This document shows, piece by piece, positions 13,402 to 48,914 of a stretch of DNA of 64,000 nucleotides. The stretch is from Patescibacteria group bacterium. Lineage in GTDB: Bacteria > Patescibacteriota > Microgenomatia > Levybacterales > GWA1-39-11. The notes under the pieces are model-generated. The model had not been told where the DNA came from. It did not search any database and saw only the letters and a program-made list of their open reading frames with translations. The DNA is taken from NCBI GenBank assembly GCA_035549315.1, contig DASZRC010000003.1, positions 10,374 through 74,373 on the forward strand, in the 5' to 3' direction. The position numbers and the translations under genes were made by a program. Within the stretch, counting starts at the first letter, position 1; each line of letters starts with the position of its first letter.

Positions 13402-13956
13402 ATGTCTTCAAAACCAATAGTAAGAAAAGTTGTAGAGGAAGTAGCTGAAAAACCGCTGAAAGCCGTGGCTGAGGAAGGCGGAAAACAACTAAAAGCTGCA
13501 AGCCGCGACTTTGTTCAACAGCTGTTTGGAACTACTGATTTATCTGATAGCGATGTTGTCCAAAGAAGAATGGAGGACAAAGTGGCTGCTTCCCAAAACA
13601 TTGACTACATTCATAGAGAATTGGGAATGATGTCCGGGAAAAAAACCGAAACAATAAACCAACAAAACAAACAACAGTCAAATGAACTGTTAAAACGAGA
13701 ACTACATCGTGAACAGGTGGCAGAGGTTGTAGATAACAAAAGAAAAGGACCAACCCAACAAGAAATCGACAGAAGACGCCTGGAAGATTTGGAAAATGAA
13801 AAGAAAAATATAAACCTACAAAGGAAACAGGCAATGATGGCTCCGGTTGAAGCCCCAATGGGAAGAAAAACCGGAATGCCAAAAAGAAAATCTGCTCCCC
13901 ACCGCATGCAACCTCCAAAAACTAGTGAAAACAAAGCCGGCAGCTCTAGAGAATAA
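13402..13956 (+). CDS. Hypothetical low-complexity K/E/Q-rich protein
   Basis: ORF with strongly charged, coiled-coil-like composition. No family recognised. Confidence 0.4.
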   Translation: MSSKPIVRKVVEEVAEKPLKAVAEEGGKQLKAASRDFVQQLFGTTDLSDSDVVQRRMEDKVAASQNIDYIHRELGMMSGKKTETINQQNKQQSNELLKRELHREQVAEVVDNKRKGPTQQEIDRRRLEDLENEKKNINLQRKQAMMAPVEAPMGRKTGMPKRKSAPHRMQPPKTSENKAGSSRE

Positions 13957-13970
13957 TATTAGGCACAAAT

Positions 13971-13999
13971 TTGACAAAAGATTGATCTTTTGGCATAAT
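13971..13999 (+). promoter_or_regulatory. Sigma70-like promoter TTGACA-N17-CATAAT
   Basis: TTGACA at 13971-13976, exact 17-nt spacer, CATAAT at 13994-13999. Confidence 0.5.
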
Positions 14000-14106
14000 C
14001 AAAATCGTGAAAAGCAAATCTACTTTAAACCATTGGTATCACATCGTCTCCAAGGCGGCTGTGATTTTTGTGGTCTAAAATAGCAAATTAATTTCACAAA
14101 TAGCAA

Positions 14107-14128
14107 CCGCCGAAAGGGCGGTTTTTTT
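14107..14128 (+). terminator. Intrinsic terminator (CCGCC-GAAA-GGCGG hairpin plus T7) ending 19 nt before the aminotransferase ATG
   Basis: Perfect GC-rich stem, GNRA-like loop, TTTTTTT tract. Only functional on the + strand. Confidence 0.7.
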
Positions 14129-14146
14129 GTGGCAAAAAAGATAAAT

Positions 14147-15229
14147 ATGAAAATTTCGAACAAATTTAAACAATTTATGGAATCTAATCAGCAAATGTAC
14201 TGGATGCAGGACAGAAATGATATGGAGATAGATCTCTCACTTAGCGAAAACCCGCTAGGCTGCTCTCCTATGGTTAGAGATGCTCTATCTGAATCCAATG
14301 GCATAAATCACTATCCAGATCCGACAAACTCTAAATTAAAAACTAAATTGGCTGAAGAATTTTTACTGAACAAAGCAAATATAGCCATTGGGAATGGTAT
14401 AGGCCCCATTTTTGATGCCATTTGCAGAATAATTCTCGATGAAGGTGAAAACGTGATTATTCCACAACTTACTTTCCCTCTTATTGAACAATTAGTGAGG
14501 CTTAATTCTGGTAAACCCAAATTAATTCCCATGAAGTTAGATCTGACAACAAATTTGGAAACGATAGAAAGAGGAATAGATAAGAAAACTAAAGCTGTAT
14601 GCCTATGTAATCCCAATAACCCTACCGGAGAAGTGATATCAAGCAAAAAACTTATTAATTTGGCAAAGAAAATTTCACCCCTACTTTTAATCGTGGATGA
14701 GGCCAATATAGATTTTGGAGGCAAGAGCATTATCAACAGCATAAAATCTCAAAACAATATTGTTGTGTTAAGAACTTTCTCTAAAGGCTTTGGACTAGCC
14801 GGATTAAGAATCGCATTTATGGCTGCCCAAGAAGATATAGTGGATATGGTTGAAGAAATATTGATTTCATCCGAAATGAGCTCCGTTTCTCAATTGGCAG
14901 CTTTAACTGCTTTATGTGACAGAAAATTTCTATATGCAACTAGAGAATTTGTAAAACAAGAAAGAAAGTTTTTAGTTGATGAATTAACTTCTAGAGGCTT
15001 TGAGGTTGTTCCCGGCAAAGCTCTAAATATTCTAGTGAAAGTTAACGATTTCTTTTCCTCCTCTTCTTTACTATGCACTGAGTTGGAAAAAAGAGGTGTA
15101 AAAACTGTGAATGGAAATTGCTTTCAGGGGCTAGGAGAAAATTTTTTGAGAATATCCCCTCGTACAAGAGAAATAAATTTACTATTTTTAAAAGTTCTGG
15201 ATGAATTGTTAGAAAGGAGTTCAAATTAA
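14147..15229 (+). CDS. Class I/II (HisC-family) PLP-dependent aminotransferase; start moved from GTG 14129 to ATG 14147
   Basis: LSLSENPLGCSP (the HisC N-terminal motif), NPNNPTG, and FSKGFGLAGLRIAF containing the PLP-binding Lys. Confidence 0.75.
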   Translation: MKISNKFKQFMESNQQMYWMQDRNDMEIDLSLSENPLGCSPMVRDALSESNGINHYPDPTNSKLKTKLAEEFLLNKANIAIGNGIGPIFDAICRIILDEGENVIIPQLTFPLIEQLVRLNSGKPKLIPMKLDLTTNLETIERGIDKKTKAVCLCNPNNPTGEVISSKKLINLAKKISPLLLIVDEANIDFGGKSIINSIKSQNNIVVLRTFSKGFGLAGLRIAFMAAQEDIVDMVEEILISSEMSSVSQLAALTALCDRKFLYATREFVKQERKFLVDELTSRGFEVVPGKALNILVKVNDFFSSSSLLCTELEKRGVKTVNGNCFQGLGENFLRISPRTREINLLFLKVLDELLERSSN

Positions 15230-15230
15230 A

Positions 15231-16700
15231 ATGCTTGAACAATTTCAAAATATTGAAAACAGACAGAATACTTCATTAATAAATGAGTGGATTAACACTT
15301 CTTTACCATTTATACAAAGAAGGGACCAAATGGTAAGAGATTTGCAACAAGGGTTAGTGGAAATGGACGGATCTGACATAGTTTTTACTAGCGGACTTAG
15401 GGCGCCTAAATACCTTGCAAAAACAATGATGCTATGGGCAAATGAAGGTCCGCTATTTTTAGGATCATACTGCCACCCGGAACAATTTGATCTTTATACT
15501 GCAACCGCGTCTATTAATGCATCTCTGTTTTTAAAACAGTTAGCAACAAGAGGTAGAACGGTAGATAGACACGAAATGGCTGAAAATTGGTATGAAACGG
15601 TTGCTCTTGATAGAACGCTCACTACCCCATTTAGCTATGGCGATATATTTGGTGTAAAAAATGATTTTCTTGGACTTGGGGGTGTTAAATATGGAACTGA
15701 ACCATTATCCATAGAGGATCAGCAAGATCTTCTTGAACAAACCGACTGCATGGAGATAAGCACATCTATTGTAGGGAGACTATCGACTGAAATACTTAAC
15801 GAGCAAAATACAATAGGGCTTAATAGGCCACAGAAAAAAATGCAACAAGAAGCAATAGCATCACTTGTTTCTTCTAGACTCCAAGAAATAAAAGATTTAG
15901 CTGCTTCTTCACTTGAAGGAGTTGCTGGACAAAACCCAAGAATAGACGACTTCCTAATGATATTTGAACAAAAGTTTTTTGGAAAAATTATTAAAACCCA
16001 ACCTATTCCTTTAGAACCCAGGTTATCAGATATAGTTGGGATAGAAAGCACACTCTTCTCTAATAATCGCAGGCACCTCAGTTTAATTTTTAAGACTCTG
16101 GAAATTCTAAATAACGAATTTGGCCCTCAAATATTTAAAAAACTTATTGAGTCATCTAGCGAAGGGCTGTTTTTTGGCAATCTAAACGGAAGAGAAACCG
16201 ATATTACCGTAGCCGATGATACAAAAGAGTTTATTCTAAGAGATAGAAAAACCGGAGCAATGGGGACAATATTAAGCGATGATAGCATGATAGGTTTTGT
16301 TAGGGACAATAATTTTCTCCCCTTGGCCAAATCCGAGATGCTTGCCGTTGCAAGCGGTGCTACAACTTTACATATGGGATCGGAACACGGAAATAGAGAA
16401 AAAGTTCTAGATGCTCTAGGCATAAATAAAGATCAATATTTTGAATTTAGATCATTTATGAATGGTATGAGAGTAGGTCAAGATTTGGAGCAGGGACACC
16501 CCGTAATAAAAATAGAAGGTGTAGCTAGATTTATCTCACCAATTCTCCTATATGCACTTTTGGGAAAAGACTTTCTTAGATCAAGAATTTTAGCCAAATC
16601 TGGAACACGAGATGAGTCTGACATATTCACAAATAAGGAGTTTAGAGTTTTTTGTGCAAAAGAGTTAGTAAAATTGACAACTCCCACTGATTTAATATGA
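15231..16700 (+). CDS. Hypothetical protein (489 aa), operon member with no recognisable family
   Basis: Long ORF tightly packed between the aminotransferase (2-nt gap) and the M29 peptidase (ATGA overlap). Confidence 0.55.
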   Translation: MLEQFQNIENRQNTSLINEWINTSLPFIQRRDQMVRDLQQGLVEMDGSDIVFTSGLRAPKYLAKTMMLWANEGPLFLGSYCHPEQFDLYTATASINASLFLKQLATRGRTVDRHEMAENWYETVALDRTLTTPFSYGDIFGVKNDFLGLGGVKYGTEPLSIEDQQDLLEQTDCMEISTSIVGRLSTEILNEQNTIGLNRPQKKMQQEAIASLVSSRLQEIKDLAASSLEGVAGQNPRIDDFLMIFEQKFFGKIIKTQPIPLEPRLSDIVGIESTLFSNNRRHLSLIFKTLEILNNEFGPQIFKKLIESSSEGLFFGNLNGRETDITVADDTKEFILRDRKTGAMGTILSDDSMIGFVRDNNFLPLAKSEMLAVASGATTLHMGSEHGNREKVLDALGINKDQYFEFRSFMNGMRVGQDLEQGHPVIKIEGVARFISPILLYALLGKDFLRSRILAKSGTRDESDIFTNKEFRVFCAKELVKLTTPTDLI

Positions 16701-17809
16701 ATAAAACAAAAAAAATATTAACTAATTTCCTTAAAAATATAGCAAAAATTCATTATGGGAATAGTGTTTTAATTATATCCTCTTTGGGAAAAGGGAATAA
16801 CAATGGATATGAAATCGGAAAAGCCATCTTTGAAGTTTGTGAACATATAGGGTGTAAAGTAAATTTGGTTGTTCAAACACCTCGCCTTTTCTCAAAACCC
16901 ATGGATCATATAGTCCGAAACAGCATGATGGAAAACTACGATATAGTTTTTCAGACAGATGTTGATAAATTAGGACACGATCCTATCGGTGCAGCCACAC
17001 CATATTTAATAGGAAAAAATAAATACACAAATATTCTTTATTACCGAAAAGCCAAAAAAGAAATCACTGCATATTGGTTTGACGTATCAGATATCGACAA
17101 ATGGCTAAATTCTATTGATATTGACTATGAAGAAATGGGAAAGCTGTCTATAGATCTTGAAGAAAAGCTTAAAAAAACAAAATATATTCGCGTAATTAGT
17201 GATGGAGGGAAAAATCAACTTAAATTAAAGGTAGATAGAACAAACTTTCCTCGATCTGATTATAGCCCTAAGCGGTCCATAAAAGGCGCTGGAGGCAATA
17301 TTCCATTCGGAGAGACACTTATAACTCCCGATAATTCTTTTGCAACGGGAAGTTTGGTTGTGGATGGAAGCTTCTACAATGAGCTGGAAGAAAATACCGT
17401 AATAGTAGAAACACCAATAACATTGTCATTCAGAAATGGCAAGTTATCCGAAATAAAAGGAGATAAAGAAGCAGAAACACTTACGCATATACTTAAAACA
17501 GTTAAAAAACAAACCGTTAGAATGGCGATAAAAAATAAACACATTACCAAAAACTATCTTAATAACATCTACGGGATAAATGAATTTGCTATAGGAACAA
17601 ACAAAAATGCAACCATATCCGGCGATCTAGTTATTGATGAAAAAACATATGGCACAGCACACATAGCACTTGGCAGAAGCTATGATGGTGATCCTGCTTT
17701 TTTACATTGTGATCTTATTGTAAAAAAGCCTAAAATTATTTTTGAATATTACTCAGGTAAAAGTGAAATAATCGTTAATGAAAACGTAATACTACCCACA
17801 CAAACTTGA
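16697..17809 (+). CDS. Aminopeptidase, M29 (AmpS/aminopeptidase T) family
   Basis: GGNIPFGETLITP, EFAIGTN...DEKTYGTAHIALGRSY and HCDLIV match the conserved M29 metal-binding blocks. Confidence 0.65.
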   Translation: MNKTKKILTNFLKNIAKIHYGNSVLIISSLGKGNNNGYEIGKAIFEVCEHIGCKVNLVVQTPRLFSKPMDHIVRNSMMENYDIVFQTDVDKLGHDPIGAATPYLIGKNKYTNILYYRKAKKEITAYWFDVSDIDKWLNSIDIDYEEMGKLSIDLEEKLKKTKYIRVISDGGKNQLKLKVDRTNFPRSDYSPKRSIKGAGGNIPFGETLITPDNSFATGSLVVDGSFYNELEENTVIVETPITLSFRNGKLSEIKGDKEAETLTHILKTVKKQTVRMAIKNKHITKNYLNNIYGINEFAIGTNKNATISGDLVIDEKTYGTAHIALGRSYDGDPAFLHCDLIVKKPKIIFEYYSGKSEIIVNENVILPTQT

Positions 17810-17810
17810 T

Positions 17811-18764
17811 ATGGAAATATTTGATTTACACATAGACCTTTCTTCATTTTGTCTTACATCAGGACGGGGAAGTATTGAAAATAAAAATAGATTGGGTGAT
17901 TTTTTCTTACCTGACCAAGTGGATATCCCAAGATTAAAAAAAGGTAAAGTGAAGATTCTATTGGCCAATATTTGCCCGATCCTTGCTACTCCCCAGGGTT
18001 TTGAGCTCCCTGAGAACAGTATTAATGAAACTATGCGACAAATTAATTTTTATAAAACTCTTAAAGGTATAAATTTAATAGATAATTTAAATTCTAGGCT
18101 AAAAGGCATTTCGGCCCTACTTTCAATTGAAGGGGCTTATTTTATAGAACAAAAGAAAGATCTAGCATTATTGATTGAACTTAGAAAACTTGGCGTTGTT
18201 TCTATTTCTCCAACCTGGAATATAGATAACGCCCTAGGTACGGGTGCCGGTAATCAAAATTCTAAGACAGGATTAACAAGACTTGGACAGGAGTTTATTG
18301 AAATGTGTGAGGACACTGGCATAATAATAGACGCAGTTCACTCGAGCAGGGCTACATTCAAAGATATAGCAAGCTTTTCAAAGAAACCTTTCTTTGTTTC
18401 CCATACTGCTTCTTATACTGTAAATAATCATAGGAGGAATCTAAAAGATACTGAGATTAGAAGGGTTGCGAATAGCGGTGGAATAATTGGTTTAAGTTTT
18501 ATTAAAGACTTTATTGGTGGAAACTCAATAAATCTAGTTACCAAGCACTTAAAACATCTTCTAAACGTTGCTGGGGAAGATCATGTAGCAATTGGTAGCG
18601 ACTTTGATGGAATGGGTCAGGGAGATTTAATAAGGGGCATTGAAGATATTGGTATGATGCAGGGCTTATTCGAATTTTTTAAAATGAGTGGAATTAATAA
18701 TAGAATACTTGAAAAAGTTGCATGTAAAAATGCCCAAAAGTTCTTCAGAGATTCTCTAAAATAG
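17811..18764 (+). CDS. Membrane dipeptidase, M19 family
   Basis: DLHID, DAVHSS, VSHTAS and IGSDFDG blocks typical of renal-dipeptidase-family metallohydrolases. Confidence 0.65.
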   Translation: MEIFDLHIDLSSFCLTSGRGSIENKNRLGDFFLPDQVDIPRLKKGKVKILLANICPILATPQGFELPENSINETMRQINFYKTLKGINLIDNLNSRLKGISALLSIEGAYFIEQKKDLALLIELRKLGVVSISPTWNIDNALGTGAGNQNSKTGLTRLGQEFIEMCEDTGIIIDAVHSSRATFKDIASFSKKPFFVSHTASYTVNNHRRNLKDTEIRRVANSGGIIGLSFIKDFIGGNSINLVTKHLKHLLNVAGEDHVAIGSDFDGMGQGDLIRGIEDIGMMQGLFEFFKMSGINNRILEKVACKNAQKFFRDSLK

Positions 18765-18783
18765 ATATGATATTATTAAACGT

Positions 18784-19986
18784 ATGATAGAACCAAAAAC
18801 ACTTAAGGGGTTCCGTGACTTTTTGCCACGAGAAGCTAGAAAAAGACAATATGTCATTGATACCTTGAAAAAGGTATTTGAGTCTTATGGCTTTGAACCG
18901 CTTGAAACACCAACTCTTGAACTTGATGAGATACTAACAGGAAAATACGGCGAAGAAGGCGAACAATTAATGTATAGGTTTGAGGATAAAGGCGGACGAA
19001 AAGTTGCTATGCGTTATGACCAAACCGTACCTTTAGCCCGCGTTATAGCCCAATATGAAGGCAAACTCACTCTACCCTTTAAGCGTTACCAAATATCTAA
19101 TGTTTGGCGAGGTGAAAATACACAAGCCGGTAGATATAGGGAATTTTTACAGTGCGATGCTGACATTATTGGCTCTCCAAGTAGCGTAGCTGATGCTGAA
19201 ACCCTGGCGCTAGTTCTTGATATTTACTCTACCCTAGGACTTGATGTCCAGATAAAAATAAATGATAGGGCTAACTTTGAAGGATTAGATAAAAAATATG
19301 TTTCGGCAATCGATAAGTTAGACAAGATTGGGGAAGAAGGCGTAATTTCTGAATTAATTCAAAAAGGAATGAGTGAATCAGATGCAAAAGCTGCTCTTAG
19401 TAAGCTCCAAAATACTTTCTTAACGGCTAGAATTCACAAAATATTGGCAGATTTAAAAGCTATGGGGAAAGACGTAGGAAGAGTTAATTATATTCCTACT
19501 CTGGCACGCGGTCTTGATTACTACACCGGGATGATCTTTGAAACGGTTGCCGAGGGAAGCACCGGATCAATATGTAGCGGAGGACGCTGGGATGAAATGA
19601 TTGGGGTTTTTACCGGCAAAAGATATCCTGCCGTAGGATTTGGGCTTGGTTTTGACAGAACCGTTGAGGTTCTAGAAAGAAAAAACCTTATCCCGGACCT
19701 TACGGCAAAAACACAAGTTCTTGTGACGATCTTTTCATCCGATTTGCTCCAAAAATCTCTTGAAACAGTTGCTTCCATAAGGGAAGCTGGAATTGAGGCT
19801 GAGATTTATCTTGATGAAGGTGCAAAAATGGAGAAACAGATAAAGTATGCAAATACCAAACAAATACCTTATGTTGTAATTGTAGGACCAAAAGAAGTAG
19901 AAGATAAGACAATTACAGTAAAAAATCTTGCAACTGGCGAGCAAAAAACTGTTAGCTTGGAAAATCTTCCACAGATAATTGAATAA
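18784..19986 (+). CDS. hisS: Histidyl-tRNA synthetase (compact, 400 aa)
   Basis: KGFRDFLP N-terminal motif, class II aaRS motifs, C-terminal anticodon-binding domain. Confidence 0.85.
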   Translation: MIEPKTLKGFRDFLPREARKRQYVIDTLKKVFESYGFEPLETPTLELDEILTGKYGEEGEQLMYRFEDKGGRKVAMRYDQTVPLARVIAQYEGKLTLPFKRYQISNVWRGENTQAGRYREFLQCDADIIGSPSSVADAETLALVLDIYSTLGLDVQIKINDRANFEGLDKKYVSAIDKLDKIGEEGVISELIQKGMSESDAKAALSKLQNTFLTARIHKILADLKAMGKDVGRVNYIPTLARGLDYYTGMIFETVAEGSTGSICSGGRWDEMIGVFTGKRYPAVGFGLGFDRTVEVLERKNLIPDLTAKTQVLVTIFSSDLLQKSLETVASIREAGIEAEIYLDEGAKMEKQIKYANTKQIPYVVIVGPKEVEDKTITVKNLATGEQKTVSLENLPQIIE

Positions 19987-19988
19987 AC

Positions 19989-20912
19989 ATGAAACTGTCC
20001 AAAACTCAAATGGCCGTAATTGCATTAATGGCAGCCAACACCATTTGGGGAGCCGGCCCACCCTTTTTTAAATTAGCTTTAGAAAACATAGGTCCTTTTA
20101 CTCTGGCCTTTCTTAGGTTTTTTATAGCATCAGCCATAATCTTCCCTTTTGCCAAAAAATTTCTAAGGGTTGAAAAGGCGGATATGGCAGAGGTTTTTTT
20201 AGCAGGATTTTTAGGAATAGTTGTTAATATTTCTTTTTTCTTCTTGGGTTTAAAGCTTGCCCCCAGCATTAACTCTTCTATTATTACGTCCGCAGGTCCT
20301 GTTTTTTTACTATTAGCATCTTTTGTTTTTTTGGGAGAAAGACTAAAGAAAAAATTGGTAATAGGTACATTTGTGGGTCTATTTGGAGTCATATTAATAA
20401 TATTTGAACCAATATTTTCCACTGAGCCCAATCTGGATTTTATTGGTAACCTCTTCTTCTTTATTTCAATGCTTGGGGCAATTGCACACACTATAATTGG
20501 GCGGGAACTAGTCAAAAAATATAATCCACTTGGTGTTACTTTCTGGACATTTTTTCTTGCATCTCTTTGTTTCTTACCAATGGCAGTCAGTGAAAATATT
20601 CGTCAGAGCTTCTTACTAACTATCAATTTTTCCGTTATTTTTGCCATTCTCTGGGGGGCAATCTTCAGCTCGACAATCGCATATTTTTTCCTCTTCTGGG
20701 CACTCAAATATATGCCTGCAGCCTCCACCGGAGTGTTTACCTACATGGATCCGATTGCGACTATAGTTGTTGCTTACTTCTTGCTTGGTGAAAAACCCGA
20801 CACTTTTTATCTTGTAGGATCTTTATTTATATTCCTAGGGATCTACATTGCAGAAAGACGAATCCACTACCACCCTATCCATTTACTTCGACAAGGCCAA
20901 AACCAATCCTAG
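19989..20912 (+). CDS. EamA/DMT-family transporter
   Basis: Ten predicted TM helices arranged as two EamA-like repeats. Confidence 0.7.
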   Translation: MKLSKTQMAVIALMAANTIWGAGPPFFKLALENIGPFTLAFLRFFIASAIIFPFAKKFLRVEKADMAEVFLAGFLGIVVNISFFFLGLKLAPSINSSIITSAGPVFLLLASFVFLGERLKKKLVIGTFVGLFGVILIIFEPIFSTEPNLDFIGNLFFFISMLGAIAHTIIGRELVKKYNPLGVTFWTFFLASLCFLPMAVSENIRQSFLLTINFSVIFAILWGAIFSSTIAYFFLFWALKYMPAASTGVFTYMDPIATIVVAYFLLGEKPDTFYLVGSLFIFLGIYIAERRIHYHPIHLLRQGQNQS

Positions 20913-48172: not shown

Positions 48173-48201
48173 TTGACTTTTGTCCTATAGTATGCTATAA
48201 T
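48173..48201 (+). promoter_or_regulatory. Consensus sigma70 promoter TTGACT-N17-TATAAT
   Basis: TTGACT 48173-48178, 17-nt spacer, TATAAT 48196-48201, 38 nt upstream of the VanW ATG. Confidence 0.55.
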
Positions 48202-48239
48202 TCAGACTATGTATAGATCCTGAAAGCGGATCTTTTTTT

Positions 48240-48914
48240 ATGTTTAATATTTTCTTTACATATATCATTGCTCTATTCGTTTTGATGAAGGGTAACCACC
48301 CCGTGGTAGACCCTGGCCATATTTTGGCGCAAAGAGAATTTTCACTAACCGATAGGTACAACAACAAATTTGTTAATGATGTTTTTAAAGATAATATTCT
48401 TTTAACCATTAACTATCTAACCGGTGTGGAAAAGCCGACTACCAAGGTTAACTGGACCAACGTTAATAAACCATTTACATACAAAATGGTCTTAAAACCT
48501 GGAGAGACCTTTGCCTTCCACGATGATGTATTGCCACAATATGAAGGAAAGGTTACAAAAACTTCTAACGCACATTTTAACGCCCAAGAAGGTTTTAAAT
48601 CTGATGGATATTTGTTTGGAGACGGAGTTTGTCATCTTGCCTCACTCCTCTATTGGACTGCAAAGGATGCAGGACTTAATACCCTTGCACCAACAAGACA
48701 TGATTTTGCAAAAATTCCAGATGTTCCGGAACAATTTGGTGTGTCAATTTATGATACTCCCGGTAAAAATAATGGCGACGAACAACAAAACTTGTATATT
48801 ACAAATAACAAGCCGGCAACTGTGGCTTTTGAGTTTAACTATGATGGTCATGACCTTAAAATTAAGGCTGTCGAAGAAAAAGAAGACAAGCTTACCTACT
48901 TGCCAAACGAATAA
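48240..48914 (+). CDS. VanW-family protein
   Basis: GDGVCHLASLLYWTAKDAGL matches the VanW core G(G)GVCQxSTTLYNAxxxAGL. Confidence 0.6.
   Translation: MFNIFFTYIIALFVLMKGNHPVVDPGHILAQREFSLTDRYNNKFVNDVFKDNILLTINYLTGVEKPTTKVNWTNVNKPFTYKMVLKPGETFAFHDDVLPQYEGKVTKTSNAHFNAQEGFKSDGYLFGDGVCHLASLLYWTAKDAGLNTLAPTRHDFAKIPDVPEQFGVSIYDTPGKNNGDEQQNLYITNNKPATVAFEFNYDGHDLKIKAVEEKEDKLTYLPNE

What the first reader, a model, noticed from the sequence alone, without database searches (positions are those of the whole stretch)
13971..14146. Promoter, roughly 120-nt structured leader and perfect intrinsic terminator immediately upstream of the aminotransferase operon
A TTGACA-N17-CATAAT promoter (13971-13999) is followed about 100 nt later by two hairpin-plus-U-tract elements. 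The first is ATCACA-N16-TGTGAT-TTTTTG at 14038-14070. The second is a textbook terminator, CCGCC-GAAA-GGCGG-T7, at 14107-14128. The operon ATG follows only 19 nt later. This is the layout of a transcription-attenuation leader or riboswitch controlling the downstream four-gene operon, or of a stand-alone small RNA. I could not match it to T-box, SRP or 6S RNA by eye.
Basis: seen in the sequence. Interest (0 to 1): 0.5.

Follow-up and report, generated by a model that had tools for sequence, protein, structure and literature searches.

The report
Leader-peptide attenuator before aminotransferase operon
The promoter, hairpin and terminator are real and most likely form a classical ribosome-sensing transcription attenuator, with a tiny upstream reading frame carrying histidine, tryptophan and tyrosine codons, that controls an aminotransferase, peptidase and histidyl-tRNA synthetase operon in an uncultured ultra-small (Patescibacteria) bacterium.

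Summary
An 11/12 sigma-70 promoter with an extended -10 lies at 13971-13999. A hairpin plus U-run follows at 14038-14069. The strongest intrinsic terminator in the 64-kb window lies at 14105-14128, 18 nt before ATG 14147.

It starts 7 nt after the -10 hexamer, so it looks leaderless, and it carries His-Trp-Tyr-His codons at 14031-14042.

The same layout precedes orthologous HisC-family aminotransferase genes (40-74% identity) in nine other loci, about eight independent Microgenomates lineages:
- a -10 hexamer, then 7-11 nt, then ATG/GTG;
- a 14-25 codon ORF with a W-[H/Y]-[H/Y/Q] block (invariant TTGGYATYA);
- a hairpin, a U-run and a stop codon;
- a terminator.

The hairpin's 3' arm is complementary to the terminator's 5' arm in all ten, with compensatory changes in three segments at once. 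This gives a 1:2 / 2:3 / 3:4 switch.

No Rfam family matches, and I found no report of such attenuators in this phylum.

Best reading, confidence about 0.75: a ribosome-mediated transcription attenuator of a six-gene operon. It is a new member of a textbook kind and has not been tested experimentally.

The parts
13971..13976 (+). -35 hexamer TTGACA
   Evidence: TTGACA is conserved at the same place in L004, L006, L099, L101 and L102.
13991..13999 (+). Extended -10 (TG-g-CATAAT), 17-nt spacer from the -35
   Evidence: 11/12 matches plus TG, the best site in 15 kb. All ten orthologous leaders have a -10 hexamer 7-11 nt before the leader start codon.
14007..14078 (+). Leader ORF, GTG to TAA, 23 codons (VKSKSTLNHWYHIVSKAAVIFVV*). 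The start codon lies 7 nt after the -10 hexamer, so the mRNA is inferred to be leaderless or nearly so.
   Evidence: An in-frame ATG/GTG 5-11 nt after the -10, open as far as the TGG, is seen in 10/10 leaders against 1.4-4.9% of shuffles. The closest relative, L004, has ATG at the aligned position.
14031..14042 (+). Regulatory codon block CAT-TGG-TAT-CAC (His-Trp-Tyr-His). It contains the invariant motif TTGGTATCA (14033-14041).
   Evidence: TTGGYATYA is invariant in 10/10 leaders. H+W+Y make up 42 of 223 leader residues against a 5.8% background.
14038..14049 (+). Region 1 (AUCACAUCGUCU), the 5' arm of the first hairpin. It overlaps the Tyr and His codons.
14053..14069 (+). Region 2 (AGGCGG-C-UGUGAU, 14053-14065) plus the U-run (14065-14069). 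It is the 3' arm of the first hairpin (a pause or anti-antiterminator hairpin). GGCGG at 14054-14058 is also complementary to the terminator's 5' arm.
14054..14111 (+). Alternative antiterminator structure (region 2 with region 3), -17.7 kcal/mol. Pairings: 14054-58 with 14107-11, 14060-62 with 14103-05, and 14067-73 with 14094-100.
   Evidence: It forms in all ten leaders when region 1 is masked and region 4 is absent. Own versus permuted partners give -10.0 versus -7.75 kcal/mol, reached by 0.06% of permutations.
14105..14128 (+). Intrinsic terminator (region 3 14105-14111, loop GAAAG, region 4 14117-14123, T7 14122-14128)
   Evidence: RNAalifold on ten leaders recovers it, with compensatory changes at 4 of 7 pairs.
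14129..14146 (+). Short A-rich spacer (GTGGCAAAAAAGATAAAT) before the structural gene, with no Shine-Dalgarno sequence. A similar RTGG-N-A6-TATG is present in L006, L090 and L096.
14147..15229 (+). First regulated gene, a HisC-family class I/II aminotransferase. ATG 14147 is the conserved start. The deposited annotation starts 10 codons later.
   Evidence: Pfam PF00155, E = 8e-47. NCBIfam hisC scores 226 bits, below the 276.55 cut-off. P0001 is 350 aa. The start is conserved in L004 and L006.
15231..20912 (+). Rest of the operon, with gaps of 20 nt or less: an unknown 489-aa protein, an M29-like peptidase, an M19 dipeptidase, histidyl-tRNA synthetase (18784-19986) and an EamA-family transporter (19989-20912).
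   Evidence: hisS equivalog 390 bits, above the 286.75 cut-off. The aminotransferase, HisRS and EamA genes lie together (intervening genes allowed) in L004, L006, L099 and L101.

Best explanation
The element is a ribosome-mediated (leader-peptide) transcription attenuator.

Proposed sequence of events:
1. Transcription starts about 6-8 nt after CATAAT, so the RNA begins at or next to GTG 14007. Ribosomes load on it as on a leaderless mRNA.
2. RNA polymerase transcribes the first hairpin (region 1 14038-49 with region 2 14053-65) and its U-run, and probably pauses there.
3. If His-, Trp- and Tyr-tRNAs are charged, the ribosome runs through CAT-TGG-TAT-CAC to the stop codon at 14076-78. Region 2 then stays engaged or re-pairs with region 1. 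The terminator (14105-28) forms and transcription ends 18 nt before the aminotransferase ATG.
4. If one of those tRNAs is scarce, the ribosome stalls on the codon block and covers region 1. GGCGG of region 2 is then free to pair with CCGCC of the terminator's 5' arm as soon as it emerges. The terminator cannot form.
5. Polymerase reads into the six-gene operon: a HisC-like aminotransferase, two peptidases, an unknown protein, HisRS and an EamA transporter.

Shown here:
- the sequence elements themselves;
- their conservation and strict linkage to the gene;
- the open reading frame and its start position;
- the mutually exclusive, co-varying pairings.

Inferred, not shown:
- the transcription start site;
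- translation of the ORF and stalling on the codon block;
- which amino acid or acids matter;
- the physiological role, which I take to be amino-acid scavenging in an auxotroph.
For: Conservation and linkage
- Ten leaders come from about eight independent lineages (aminotransferase identity 40-74%) and share the full layout.
- In L094, L101 and L102 the upstream gene is on the opposite strand, so the terminator cannot belong to an upstream gene.
- The motif followed by a terminator occurs nowhere else in the window or in the other 102 fetched loci.

Reading frame
- An in-frame ATG/GTG lies 5-11 nt after the -10 hexamer, with the frame open to the TGG, in 10/10 leaders. Shuffled sequences give 1.4-4.9% each, and the product over eight lineages is 1e-13.
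- The window and L004 differ at the start codon by GTG versus ATG, and at the stop by TAA versus TAG. Both the start and the stop are therefore kept.

Codon block
- Every peptide has a W-[H/Y]-[H/Y/Q] block.
- H, W and Y have low frequencies in the window's ORFs (1.5, 1.0 and 3.3%) but make up 42 of 223 leader residues, P = 1.5e-11.

Alternative pairings
- With a ribosome mask on the block and region 4 absent, region 2 pairs with region 3 in 10/10 leaders. Region 2 nucleotides are shared with the 1:2 hairpin in 10/10.
- Region 2 co-varies with region 3. Own partners average -10.0 kcal/mol against -7.75 +/- 0.69 for permuted partners, and 0.06% of permutations reach the observed value.
- At position 3 of the terminator arm, region 3 is G, C, A or U. 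Region 4 is always the complement, and region 2 is the complement wherever that position is paired (9 of 10 leaders).
- The terminator has compensatory changes at 4 of 7 pairs.

Leaderless start is plausible in this genome
- At least ten window genes have a TATAAT-like hexamer 6-9 nt before their ATG, and Shine-Dalgarno motifs are rare.

Functional fit
- The regulated genes are a HisC-family aminotransferase and HisRS.

Precedents
- Classical attenuators have been predicted before aminoacyl-tRNA synthetase genes trpS and leuS in Streptomyces (PMC1262725).
- Leaderless sensory short ORFs are described in mycobacteria (bioRxiv 10.1101/834739).
Against: - There are no transcript, ribosome or reporter data.
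- The regulatory block is short and mixed (1-2 His, 1 Trp, 0-3 Tyr), unlike the seven-His run of enterobacterial hisL.
- The leader ORFs were located through the conserved motif, so the codon enrichment partly restates that motif.
- The T before TGG is invariant although it is a third codon position of varying amino acids. The first Y-A-T codon always ends in T. Both hint at an extra RNA-level constraint that the peptide model does not explain.
- In L006 the ORF stops early, inside the hairpin loop (14 codons).
- The window's start codon is GTG, which is weaker than ATG for leaderless initiation.
- One ortholog, L092, lacks the element.
- At equilibrium the terminator fold wins, so the switch must be kinetic, as it is in trp.
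- The ten sequences are few, and some are close pairs (window with L004, L094 with L010).
Confidence: 0.75

Rival explanations
1. The element is a transcription attenuator with the same terminator/antiterminator switch, but it is set by a factor that binds the RNA rather than by a translating ribosome. The factor could be a protein, an uncharged tRNA or a small ligand recognising the invariant UUGGYAUYA. On this reading the short ORF is incidental.
For: UUGGYAUYA is invariant at the nucleotide level. That includes a third-codon-position U before UGG in 10/10 leaders, and U at the third position of the next codon. UGG-N resembles the tRNA-acceptor-binding motif of T-boxes (my own knowledge, a lead only). 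A T-box-like sequence exists in a related genome (L096).
Against: - The 25-30 nt between the promoter and the motif are not conserved in sequence or fold but always keep a start codon and an open frame.
- There is no Rfam T-box or riboswitch hit in any of the ten leaders.
- There is no Stem I-like or multi-helix aptamer.
- The leader is only about 120 nt.
- The variable positions in the motif switch His and Tyr codons (C/U at codon position 1), which fits a codon reading.
Confidence: 0.12
2. The element is a stand-alone small RNA of about 122 nt (14007-14128), with its own promoter and terminator, that acts in trans. Its position before the aminotransferase would be incidental, or the terminated leader would double as an sRNA.
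For: There is a strong promoter and a strong terminator. The fold is very stable, z = -4.9. Terminated trp attenuator RNAs are known to act in trans in Sinorhizobium (PMC7968998 abstract).
Against: - The element lies directly before the orthologous aminotransferase gene in all ten loci, although the upstream neighbours differ.
- Its 3' end lies 11-24 nt before the gene start in eight of the ten.
- There is no separate promoter between the terminator and the ATG.
- No Rfam sRNA family reaches threshold. AaHKsRNA82 scores 34.7 against 51.4 bits and matches essentially the terminator.
- A trans role would add to attenuation rather than replace it.
Confidence: 0.05
3. The parts are unrelated. On this reading the terminator ends the upstream gene (13402-13956), the promoter match is either chance or a promoter whose transcripts mostly stop at that terminator, and the first hairpin is chance.
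For: The upstream gene is on the same strand and has no other terminator. Promoter-like matches are common in AT-rich DNA: 48 found against 39.5 expected.
Against: - The full layout recurs where the upstream gene is on the opposite strand (L094, L101, L102).
- The promoter is the best match in 15 kb and is conserved.
- The hairpin and terminator arms co-vary.
Confidence: 0.02

Closest known systems
Enterobacterial his and trp operon attenuators (hisL, trpL; Rfam His_leader RF00514, Trp_leader RF00513)
   Same: Both have a promoter-proximal short ORF with a cluster of codons for the sensed amino acid. Both have a 1:2 pause or anti-antiterminator hairpin, a 2:3 antiterminator and a 3:4 intrinsic terminator just before the first structural gene. 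In both, the decision between folds is kinetic.
   Different: - No sequence or covariance-model similarity: Trp_leader scores 14.8 bits against 41, and His_leader gives no hit.
- The ORF appears leaderless rather than Shine-Dalgarno-led.
- The block mixes 1-2 His, 1 Trp and 0-3 Tyr codons instead of 7 His or 2 Trp.
- The regulated genes are a lone HisC-like aminotransferase, peptidases, HisRS and a transporter, not a biosynthetic pathway.
- The host is a Patescibacteria (Microgenomates) lineage.
Leader-peptide attenuators of aminoacyl-tRNA synthetase genes: E. coli pheM-pheST (my own knowledge) and predicted trpS and leuS attenuators in Streptomyces (PMC1262725)
   Same: Classical attenuation is used to raise a tRNA synthetase when its amino acid or charged tRNA is scarce. 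Here HisRS lies in or next to the regulated operon in the window, L004, L006, L099 and L101.
   Different: HisRS is a distal gene here (fifth in the window) and is absent from the operon in several lineages. The constant regulated gene is the aminotransferase.
Leaderless polycysteine short-ORF attenuators of mycobacteria ('ribulon', Canestrari et al., bioRxiv 10.1101/834739)
   Same: A leaderless sensory short ORF is the first cistron. Ribosome stalling on codons for one amino acid remodels the downstream RNA structure and switches on the operon genes.
   Different: The mycobacterial elements act on translation by unmasking a ribosome-binding site. This element has a canonical intrinsic terminator, and so it should act on transcription. 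The codons also differ: Cys there, His/Trp/Tyr here.
T-box riboswitches
   Same: They are the usual way Gram-positive bacteria control aminoacyl-tRNA synthetase and amino-acid genes through a terminator/antiterminator choice that reports tRNA charging.
   Different: There is no Stem I, no specifier loop and no T-box sequence. No Rfam hit was found. The leader is half the size, and a conserved ORF is present.

Membership tests
Classical ribosome-mediated (leader-peptide) transcription attenuator | Short ORF with its own start signal immediately downstream of the promoter | tested here: met
   GTG 14007 lies 7 nt after the -10 hexamer. An in-frame ATG/GTG 5-11 nt after the -10, with an open frame, is seen in 10/10 leaders against 1.4-4.9% of shuffles. 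The leaderless layout is common in this genome.
Classical ribosome-mediated (leader-peptide) transcription attenuator | Cluster of codons for the sensed amino acid(s) inside the ORF, placed so that a stalled ribosome covers region 1 | tested here: met
   His-Trp-Tyr-His codons lie at 14031-14042 and overlap region 1 (14038-49). A W-[H/Y]-[H/Y/Q] block is present in 10/10 leaders, and H/W/Y enrichment gives P = 1.5e-11. Caveat: the block is short and mixed, and the ORFs were found through the motif.
Classical ribosome-mediated (leader-peptide) transcription attenuator | Intrinsic terminator between the leader ORF and the first structural gene | tested here: met
   The terminator lies at 14105-14128, -11.8 kcal/mol, with T7, 18 nt before the ATG. 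It is conserved, with compensatory changes at 4 of 7 pairs.
Classical ribosome-mediated (leader-peptide) transcription attenuator | Mutually exclusive 1:2, 2:3 and 3:4 pairings | tested here: met
   Constrained folds give the 2:3 pairing in 10/10 leaders. Region 2 is shared with 1:2 and region 3 with 3:4. The own-versus-permuted test is reached by 0.06% of permutations, and covariation across the three segments is seen. All of this is in silico.
Classical ribosome-mediated (leader-peptide) transcription attenuator | Regulated genes concern the sensed amino acid | tested here: inconclusive
   A HisC-family aminotransferase (below the NCBIfam equivalog cut-off) and HisRS fit His. The link to Trp and Tyr rests on the known aromatic side-activity of some HisC enzymes (my own knowledge), which was not tested.
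Classical ribosome-mediated (leader-peptide) transcription attenuator | Leader translation and amino-acid-dependent read-through demonstrated | not testable with these tools
   No transcriptome, Term-seq, ribosome profiling or reporter data are available here.
Rfam His_leader / Trp_leader / Thr_leader families | Covariance-model score at or above the gathering threshold | tested here: not met
   Trp_leader scores 14.8 bits (threshold 41) and Thr_leader 15.3 (threshold 55). His_leader is not listed. Nothing reaches the gathering score in the window or in nine related loci.
T-box riboswitch | Stem I with specifier loop, and a T-box antiterminator bulge; Rfam RF00230 match | tested here: not met
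   There is no hit even at E <= 10 in 13900-14250, nor at the gathering score in related loci. The 5' 30 nt are unstructured and variable.
Metabolite-binding riboswitch | Conserved, structured aptamer upstream of the expression platform | tested here: not met
   Only a 9-nt motif and the switch helices are conserved. RNAalifold finds no conserved helix other than the terminator, and there is no Rfam match. A very small novel aptamer cannot be formally excluded.
Mycobacterial leaderless sensory sORF attenuators | Leaderless sORF whose stalling unmasks the downstream ribosome-binding site (translational control) | tested here: not met
   The leaderless sORF layout is met by inference. The output element here is an intrinsic terminator, and no Shine-Dalgarno sequence is present to mask.

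The most novel reading that the evidence does not exclude
This is a previously undescribed attenuator family, widespread in Microgenomates. To my knowledge it would be the first ribosome-mediated attenuator reported in the Candidate Phyla Radiation. A leaderless leader peptide would read His-, Trp- and Tyr-tRNA charging together and switch on an amino-acid-scavenging module: a broad HisC-like aminotransferase, peptidases, HisRS and an EamA transporter. That would give these auxotrophic, uncultured ultra-small bacteria a direct starvation sensor. The invariant U-UGG-YAU context may add a second layer at the RNA or decoding level.
Probability: 0.5. Interest if true: 0.6.

Novelty: new member of a known kind. 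Interest (0 to 1): 0.5.

Why it matters
- Patescibacteria have tiny genomes, few recognisable regulators and almost no amino-acid biosynthesis. How they sense nutrient supply is largely unknown.
- A conserved leader-peptide attenuator would show that they use coupled transcription and translation as a sensor.
- It would show that leaderless initiation can serve that purpose.
- It would show that the response to His/Trp/Tyr shortage is to raise an aminotransferase, peptidases, HisRS and a transporter. That points to the physiological role of the puzzling lone 'hisC' genes in these genomes.
- Practically, it gives a searchable RNA and peptide motif for annotation. It also corrects gene starts: one deposited start lies inside the terminator loop.

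Tried and rejected
- Rfam at gathering threshold on the window, and at E <= 10 on 13900-14250, gave only sub-threshold hits driven by the terminator: AaHKsRNA82 34.7 against 51.4 bits, and Thr and Trp leaders at about 15 bits. Nine related loci gave nothing at the leaders.
- The genome-contig scan with the aminotransferase returned only a distant Thermotogota HisC.
- The exact-protein look-ups with my own start choices failed, because the deposited start differs.
- The metagenome scan used very general HisC peptides. Of the 80 loci, mostly with 25-35% identity, only L010 carries the leader. A terminator and short-ORF scan of the others found nothing similar.
- One ortholog, L092 (P0035), has no leader. 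There the gene overlaps an upstream HTH gene.
- Plain MAFFT with RNAalifold aligns only the terminator. The 1:2 and 2:3 helices therefore had to be tested by per-sequence constrained folding and permutation.
- An equilibrium fold with region 1 masked still keeps the terminator. The antiterminator appears only when region 4 is withheld, as expected for a kinetic switch.
- SRP, 6S and T-box identities are rejected. TnaC-like ligand-dependent stalling was considered but is unlikely, because the distance from Trp to the stop codon varies from 5 to 14 residues.
- Literature searches for leader-peptide attenuation in Patescibacteria or the CPR returned nothing.

Full report
**1. What is there**

The window comes from a Patescibacteria (Microgenomates-like) metagenome-assembled genome. 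The aminotransferase protein is 100% identical to a GCA_964585445.1 entry, and locus L002 from that assembly is identical to the window over the aligned 251-bp leader segment.

The sequence in 13971-14147 reads as follows:
- TTGACA (13971-76), a 17-nt spacer, then TG-g-CATAAT (13991-99).
- Seven nt later, GTG (14007).
- A hairpin, AUCACAUCGUCU / AGGCGG-C-UGUGAU (14038-49 / 14053-65), followed by U5.
- TAA (14076-78).
- A terminator, AACCGCC-GAAAG-GGCGGUU plus U7 (14105-28).
- Eighteen nt later, ATG 14147.

Three small corrections apply:
- The terminator loop is 5 nt, not 4.
- The first U-run is one U shorter than written.
- The promoter has an extended -10 as well.

The promoter is the best sigma-70 match in 15 kb. 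My hairpin-plus-T-run scan lists few canonical terminators in the whole 64 kb, and this is the strongest. The 14005-14130 RNA folds with z = -4.9.

Downstream lie six tightly packed genes, not four:
- a HisC-family aminotransferase;
- an unknown 489-aa protein;
- an M29-like peptidase;
- an M19 dipeptidase;
- histidyl-tRNA synthetase;
- an EamA transporter.

**2. No known RNA family**

Rfam finds nothing at gathering thresholds in the window. Around the element it finds only sub-threshold, terminator-driven hits. Nine related loci give nothing at their leaders either.

**3. Comparative evidence**

Orthologous aminotransferase genes were traced through protein hits to their contigs. One metagenome locus, L010, was added.

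Ten leaders, from about eight independent lineages with 40-74% protein identity, share one architecture. Named lineages include Daviesbacteria and other Microgenomates. The shared features are:
- a -10 hexamer, TATAAT in six of the ten;
- 7-11 nt, then ATG/GTG;
- an ORF of 14-25 codons;
- the invariant DNA motif TTGGYATYA, which encodes Trp followed by His/Tyr and then His/Tyr/Gln;
- a hairpin, a U-rich run and a stop codon;
- a terminator 70-91 nt after the start of the motif;
- the gene start, usually 11-24 nt after the terminator.

The leader peptides are:

| Locus | Peptide |
|---|---|
| window | VKSKSTLNHWYHIVSKAAVIFVV |
| L004 | MNRKSFLNHWYHNASKAAVILVV |
| L090 | MIKINSVENNWHHTSLSGGVLFVV |
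| L099 | MKNIRSTENHWYHFKTRKVGGIVV |
| L101 | MKLNTVSYWHQYFAFTGGIFGA |
| L102 | MLRINAIQSVWYHSLQLRESVVAVV |
| L096 | MSTRTTNAYYWHYTSLREAGSFVAK |
| L006 | MTNLSFSVWHHQPQ |
| L094 | MSLKNNAHYHTWYYAQKGGVCF |
| L010 | MLVVNAYHHAWYYALKGGVCF |

Upstream neighbours differ between loci. In L094, L101 and L102 they lie on the opposite strand, so the terminator is not the end of an upstream gene. The combination of motif and terminator occurs nowhere else in the window or in the other 102 fetched loci. One ortholog, L092, lacks it.

**4. Is the ORF real?**

- Between the -10 and the Trp codon the sequence is not conserved. Yet every leader keeps an in-frame ATG/GTG 5-11 nt after the -10, with no stop before TGG. 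Dinucleotide shuffles give this in 1.4-4.9% of cases per sequence, and the product over eight lineages is about 1e-13.
- Between the window and L004, the start (GTG/ATG) and the stop (TAA/TAG) both change but remain a start and a stop.
- A start codon 7-11 nt after the -10 implies a leaderless or nearly leaderless mRNA.
- This looks normal for the genome. At least ten other window genes have a TATAAT-like hexamer 6-9 nt before their ATG, and Shine-Dalgarno motifs are rare.
- H, W and Y have low frequencies in the window's ORFs (1.5, 1.0 and 3.3%), yet they make up 42 of 223 leader residues, P = 1.5e-11. The caveat is that the ORFs were located through the motif.

**5. The switch**

Window energies:

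| Structure | Free energy (kcal/mol) |
|---|---|
| Hairpin 1:2 | -11.2 |
| Terminator 3:4 | -11.8 |
| Alternative 2:3 structure | -17.7 |

The 2:3 structure pairs 14054-58 with 14107-11, 14060-62 with 14103-05, and 14067-73 with 14094-100.

- In all ten leaders, masking the stretch that a ribosome stalled on the Trp/His/Tyr block would cover, and withholding region 4, makes region 2 pair with the terminator's 5' arm. The same region 2 nucleotides are otherwise paired with region 1.
- With region 4 present, the terminator wins at equilibrium. The choice must therefore be kinetic, as in trp.
- Region 2 co-varies with region 3. Own partners average -10.0 kcal/mol against -7.75 +/- 0.69 for permuted partners, and 0.06% of permutations reach the observed value.
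- At the most variable terminator position, region 3 is G, C, A or U. Region 4 is always the complement, and region 2 is the complement wherever that position is paired (9 of 10 leaders).
- RNAalifold on a plain MAFFT alignment independently recovers the terminator, with compensatory changes at 4 of 7 pairs.

**6. Mechanism proposed**

This is classical attenuation.
1. Polymerase pauses at the 1:2 hairpin and its U-run, and a ribosome that loaded at the 5'-terminal GTG catches up.
2. With charged tRNAs, the ribosome reaches the stop codon, and 1:2 and 3:4 form. Transcription ends at about 14128.
3. With scarce His-, Trp- or Tyr-tRNA, the ribosome stalls over region 1, 2:3 forms and the operon is transcribed.

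The last codon of the block is His in six leaders and Tyr in four. A ribosome stalled with that codon in its A site would cover all of region 1. Both amino acids, and perhaps the invariant Trp, could therefore count.

The operon content suggests an amino-acid-scavenging response in an auxotroph. This physiological reading is inference.

**7. Rivals**

- A factor-binding attenuator, using a protein, tRNA or ligand that recognises UUGGYAUYA, is kept at about 0.12. The U before UGG is invariant although it is a third codon position, and the peptide model does not explain that.
- A trans-acting sRNA (about 0.05) would at most be an added role.
- Unrelated promoter and terminator (about 0.02) is contradicted by the comparative data.

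**8. Relation to known systems**

- It works like the enterobacterial trp and his attenuators, but it is not a member of any Rfam leader family.
- Attenuators before tRNA synthetase genes have precedents (PMC1262725).
- Leaderless sensory short ORFs are known in mycobacteria, but those act on translation (bioRxiv 10.1101/834739).
- Full-text searches found no report of leader-peptide attenuation in Patescibacteria or the CPR. That library covers only open-access papers.

**9. Verdict**

This is a real, conserved cis-regulatory leader. It is most likely a ribosome-mediated transcription attenuator with a leaderless His/Trp/Tyr leader peptide.

It is a new member of a textbook kind, found in a phylum where regulation is poorly known. 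I give it moderate interest (0.5). Experimental confirmation is entirely lacking.

Noticed in passing
window 48174-48242 (+): A second promoter, tiny ORF, terminator and gene layout. TTGACT-N17-TATAAT is followed 7 nt later by ATG TAT AGA TCC TGA (MYRS*). The hairpin AGATCC-TGAAAGC-GGATCT plus T7 overlaps that ORF and ends directly at ATG 48240 of a VanW-like gene. It may be another leaderless-ORF-dependent attenuator.
   Followed up: partly
window, whole (for example starts at 1108-, 6741-, 9663-, 13314-, 36149-, 36667-, 47347-, 54090-, 54638-, 58471-): Many genes have a TATAAT-like hexamer 6-9 nt upstream of their ATG, and Shine-Dalgarno motifs are rare. Leaderless mRNAs appear to be the norm for promoter-proximal genes in this genome.
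   Followed up: partly
window, whole: Canonical intrinsic terminators are rare in a crude scan of the 64-kb window. The clear ones are 14105-14128 (+), 48215-48241 (+) and 52762-52728 (-).
   Followed up: no
window 14147 vs 14177; L090 3501 vs ~3538: Deposited gene starts look wrong. The window's aminotransferase is annotated 10 codons too short; ATG 14147 is the conserved start. The Daviesbacteria ortholog (P0010) is annotated from an ATG that lies inside the terminator loop.
   Followed up: yes
L096 5250-5450: A promoter-like site is followed by a T-box-like sequence (GGGTGGAACCACG) and a terminator (GTCCC...GGACGGG-T7), before a class II tRNA synthetase-like gene with an HGTP_anticodon domain. 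It does not reach the Rfam gathering score.
   Followed up: no
L090 5520-5890: A long structured non-coding region of about 370 nt lies before an LDcluster4-family gene in a Daviesbacteria genome. It has its own promoter (TTGACA...TATACT) and two terminator-like hairpins. Further downstream is a HisG-HisRS gene pair.
   Followed up: no
L010 6452-6576 (-): A SAM-I/IV riboswitch (53 bits, above the gathering score) lies in the related metagenome contig Ga0233437_1000010.
   Followed up: no
window 14033 and aligned positions in nine loci: The T preceding the leader's TGG codon is invariant although it is the third position of codons for His, Asn, Val, Tyr, Thr or Ala. The following YAT codon always ends in T. 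This nucleotide-level constraint is not explained by the leader-peptide model.
   Followed up: partly
window 19989-20912 (+): The last operon gene, an EamA-family transporter, has weak sub-threshold similarity to the aromatic amino acid exporter YddG (65.7 bits against a 300-bit cut-off). The aminotransferase, HisRS and EamA genes lie together in L004, L006, L099 and L101.
   Followed up: no
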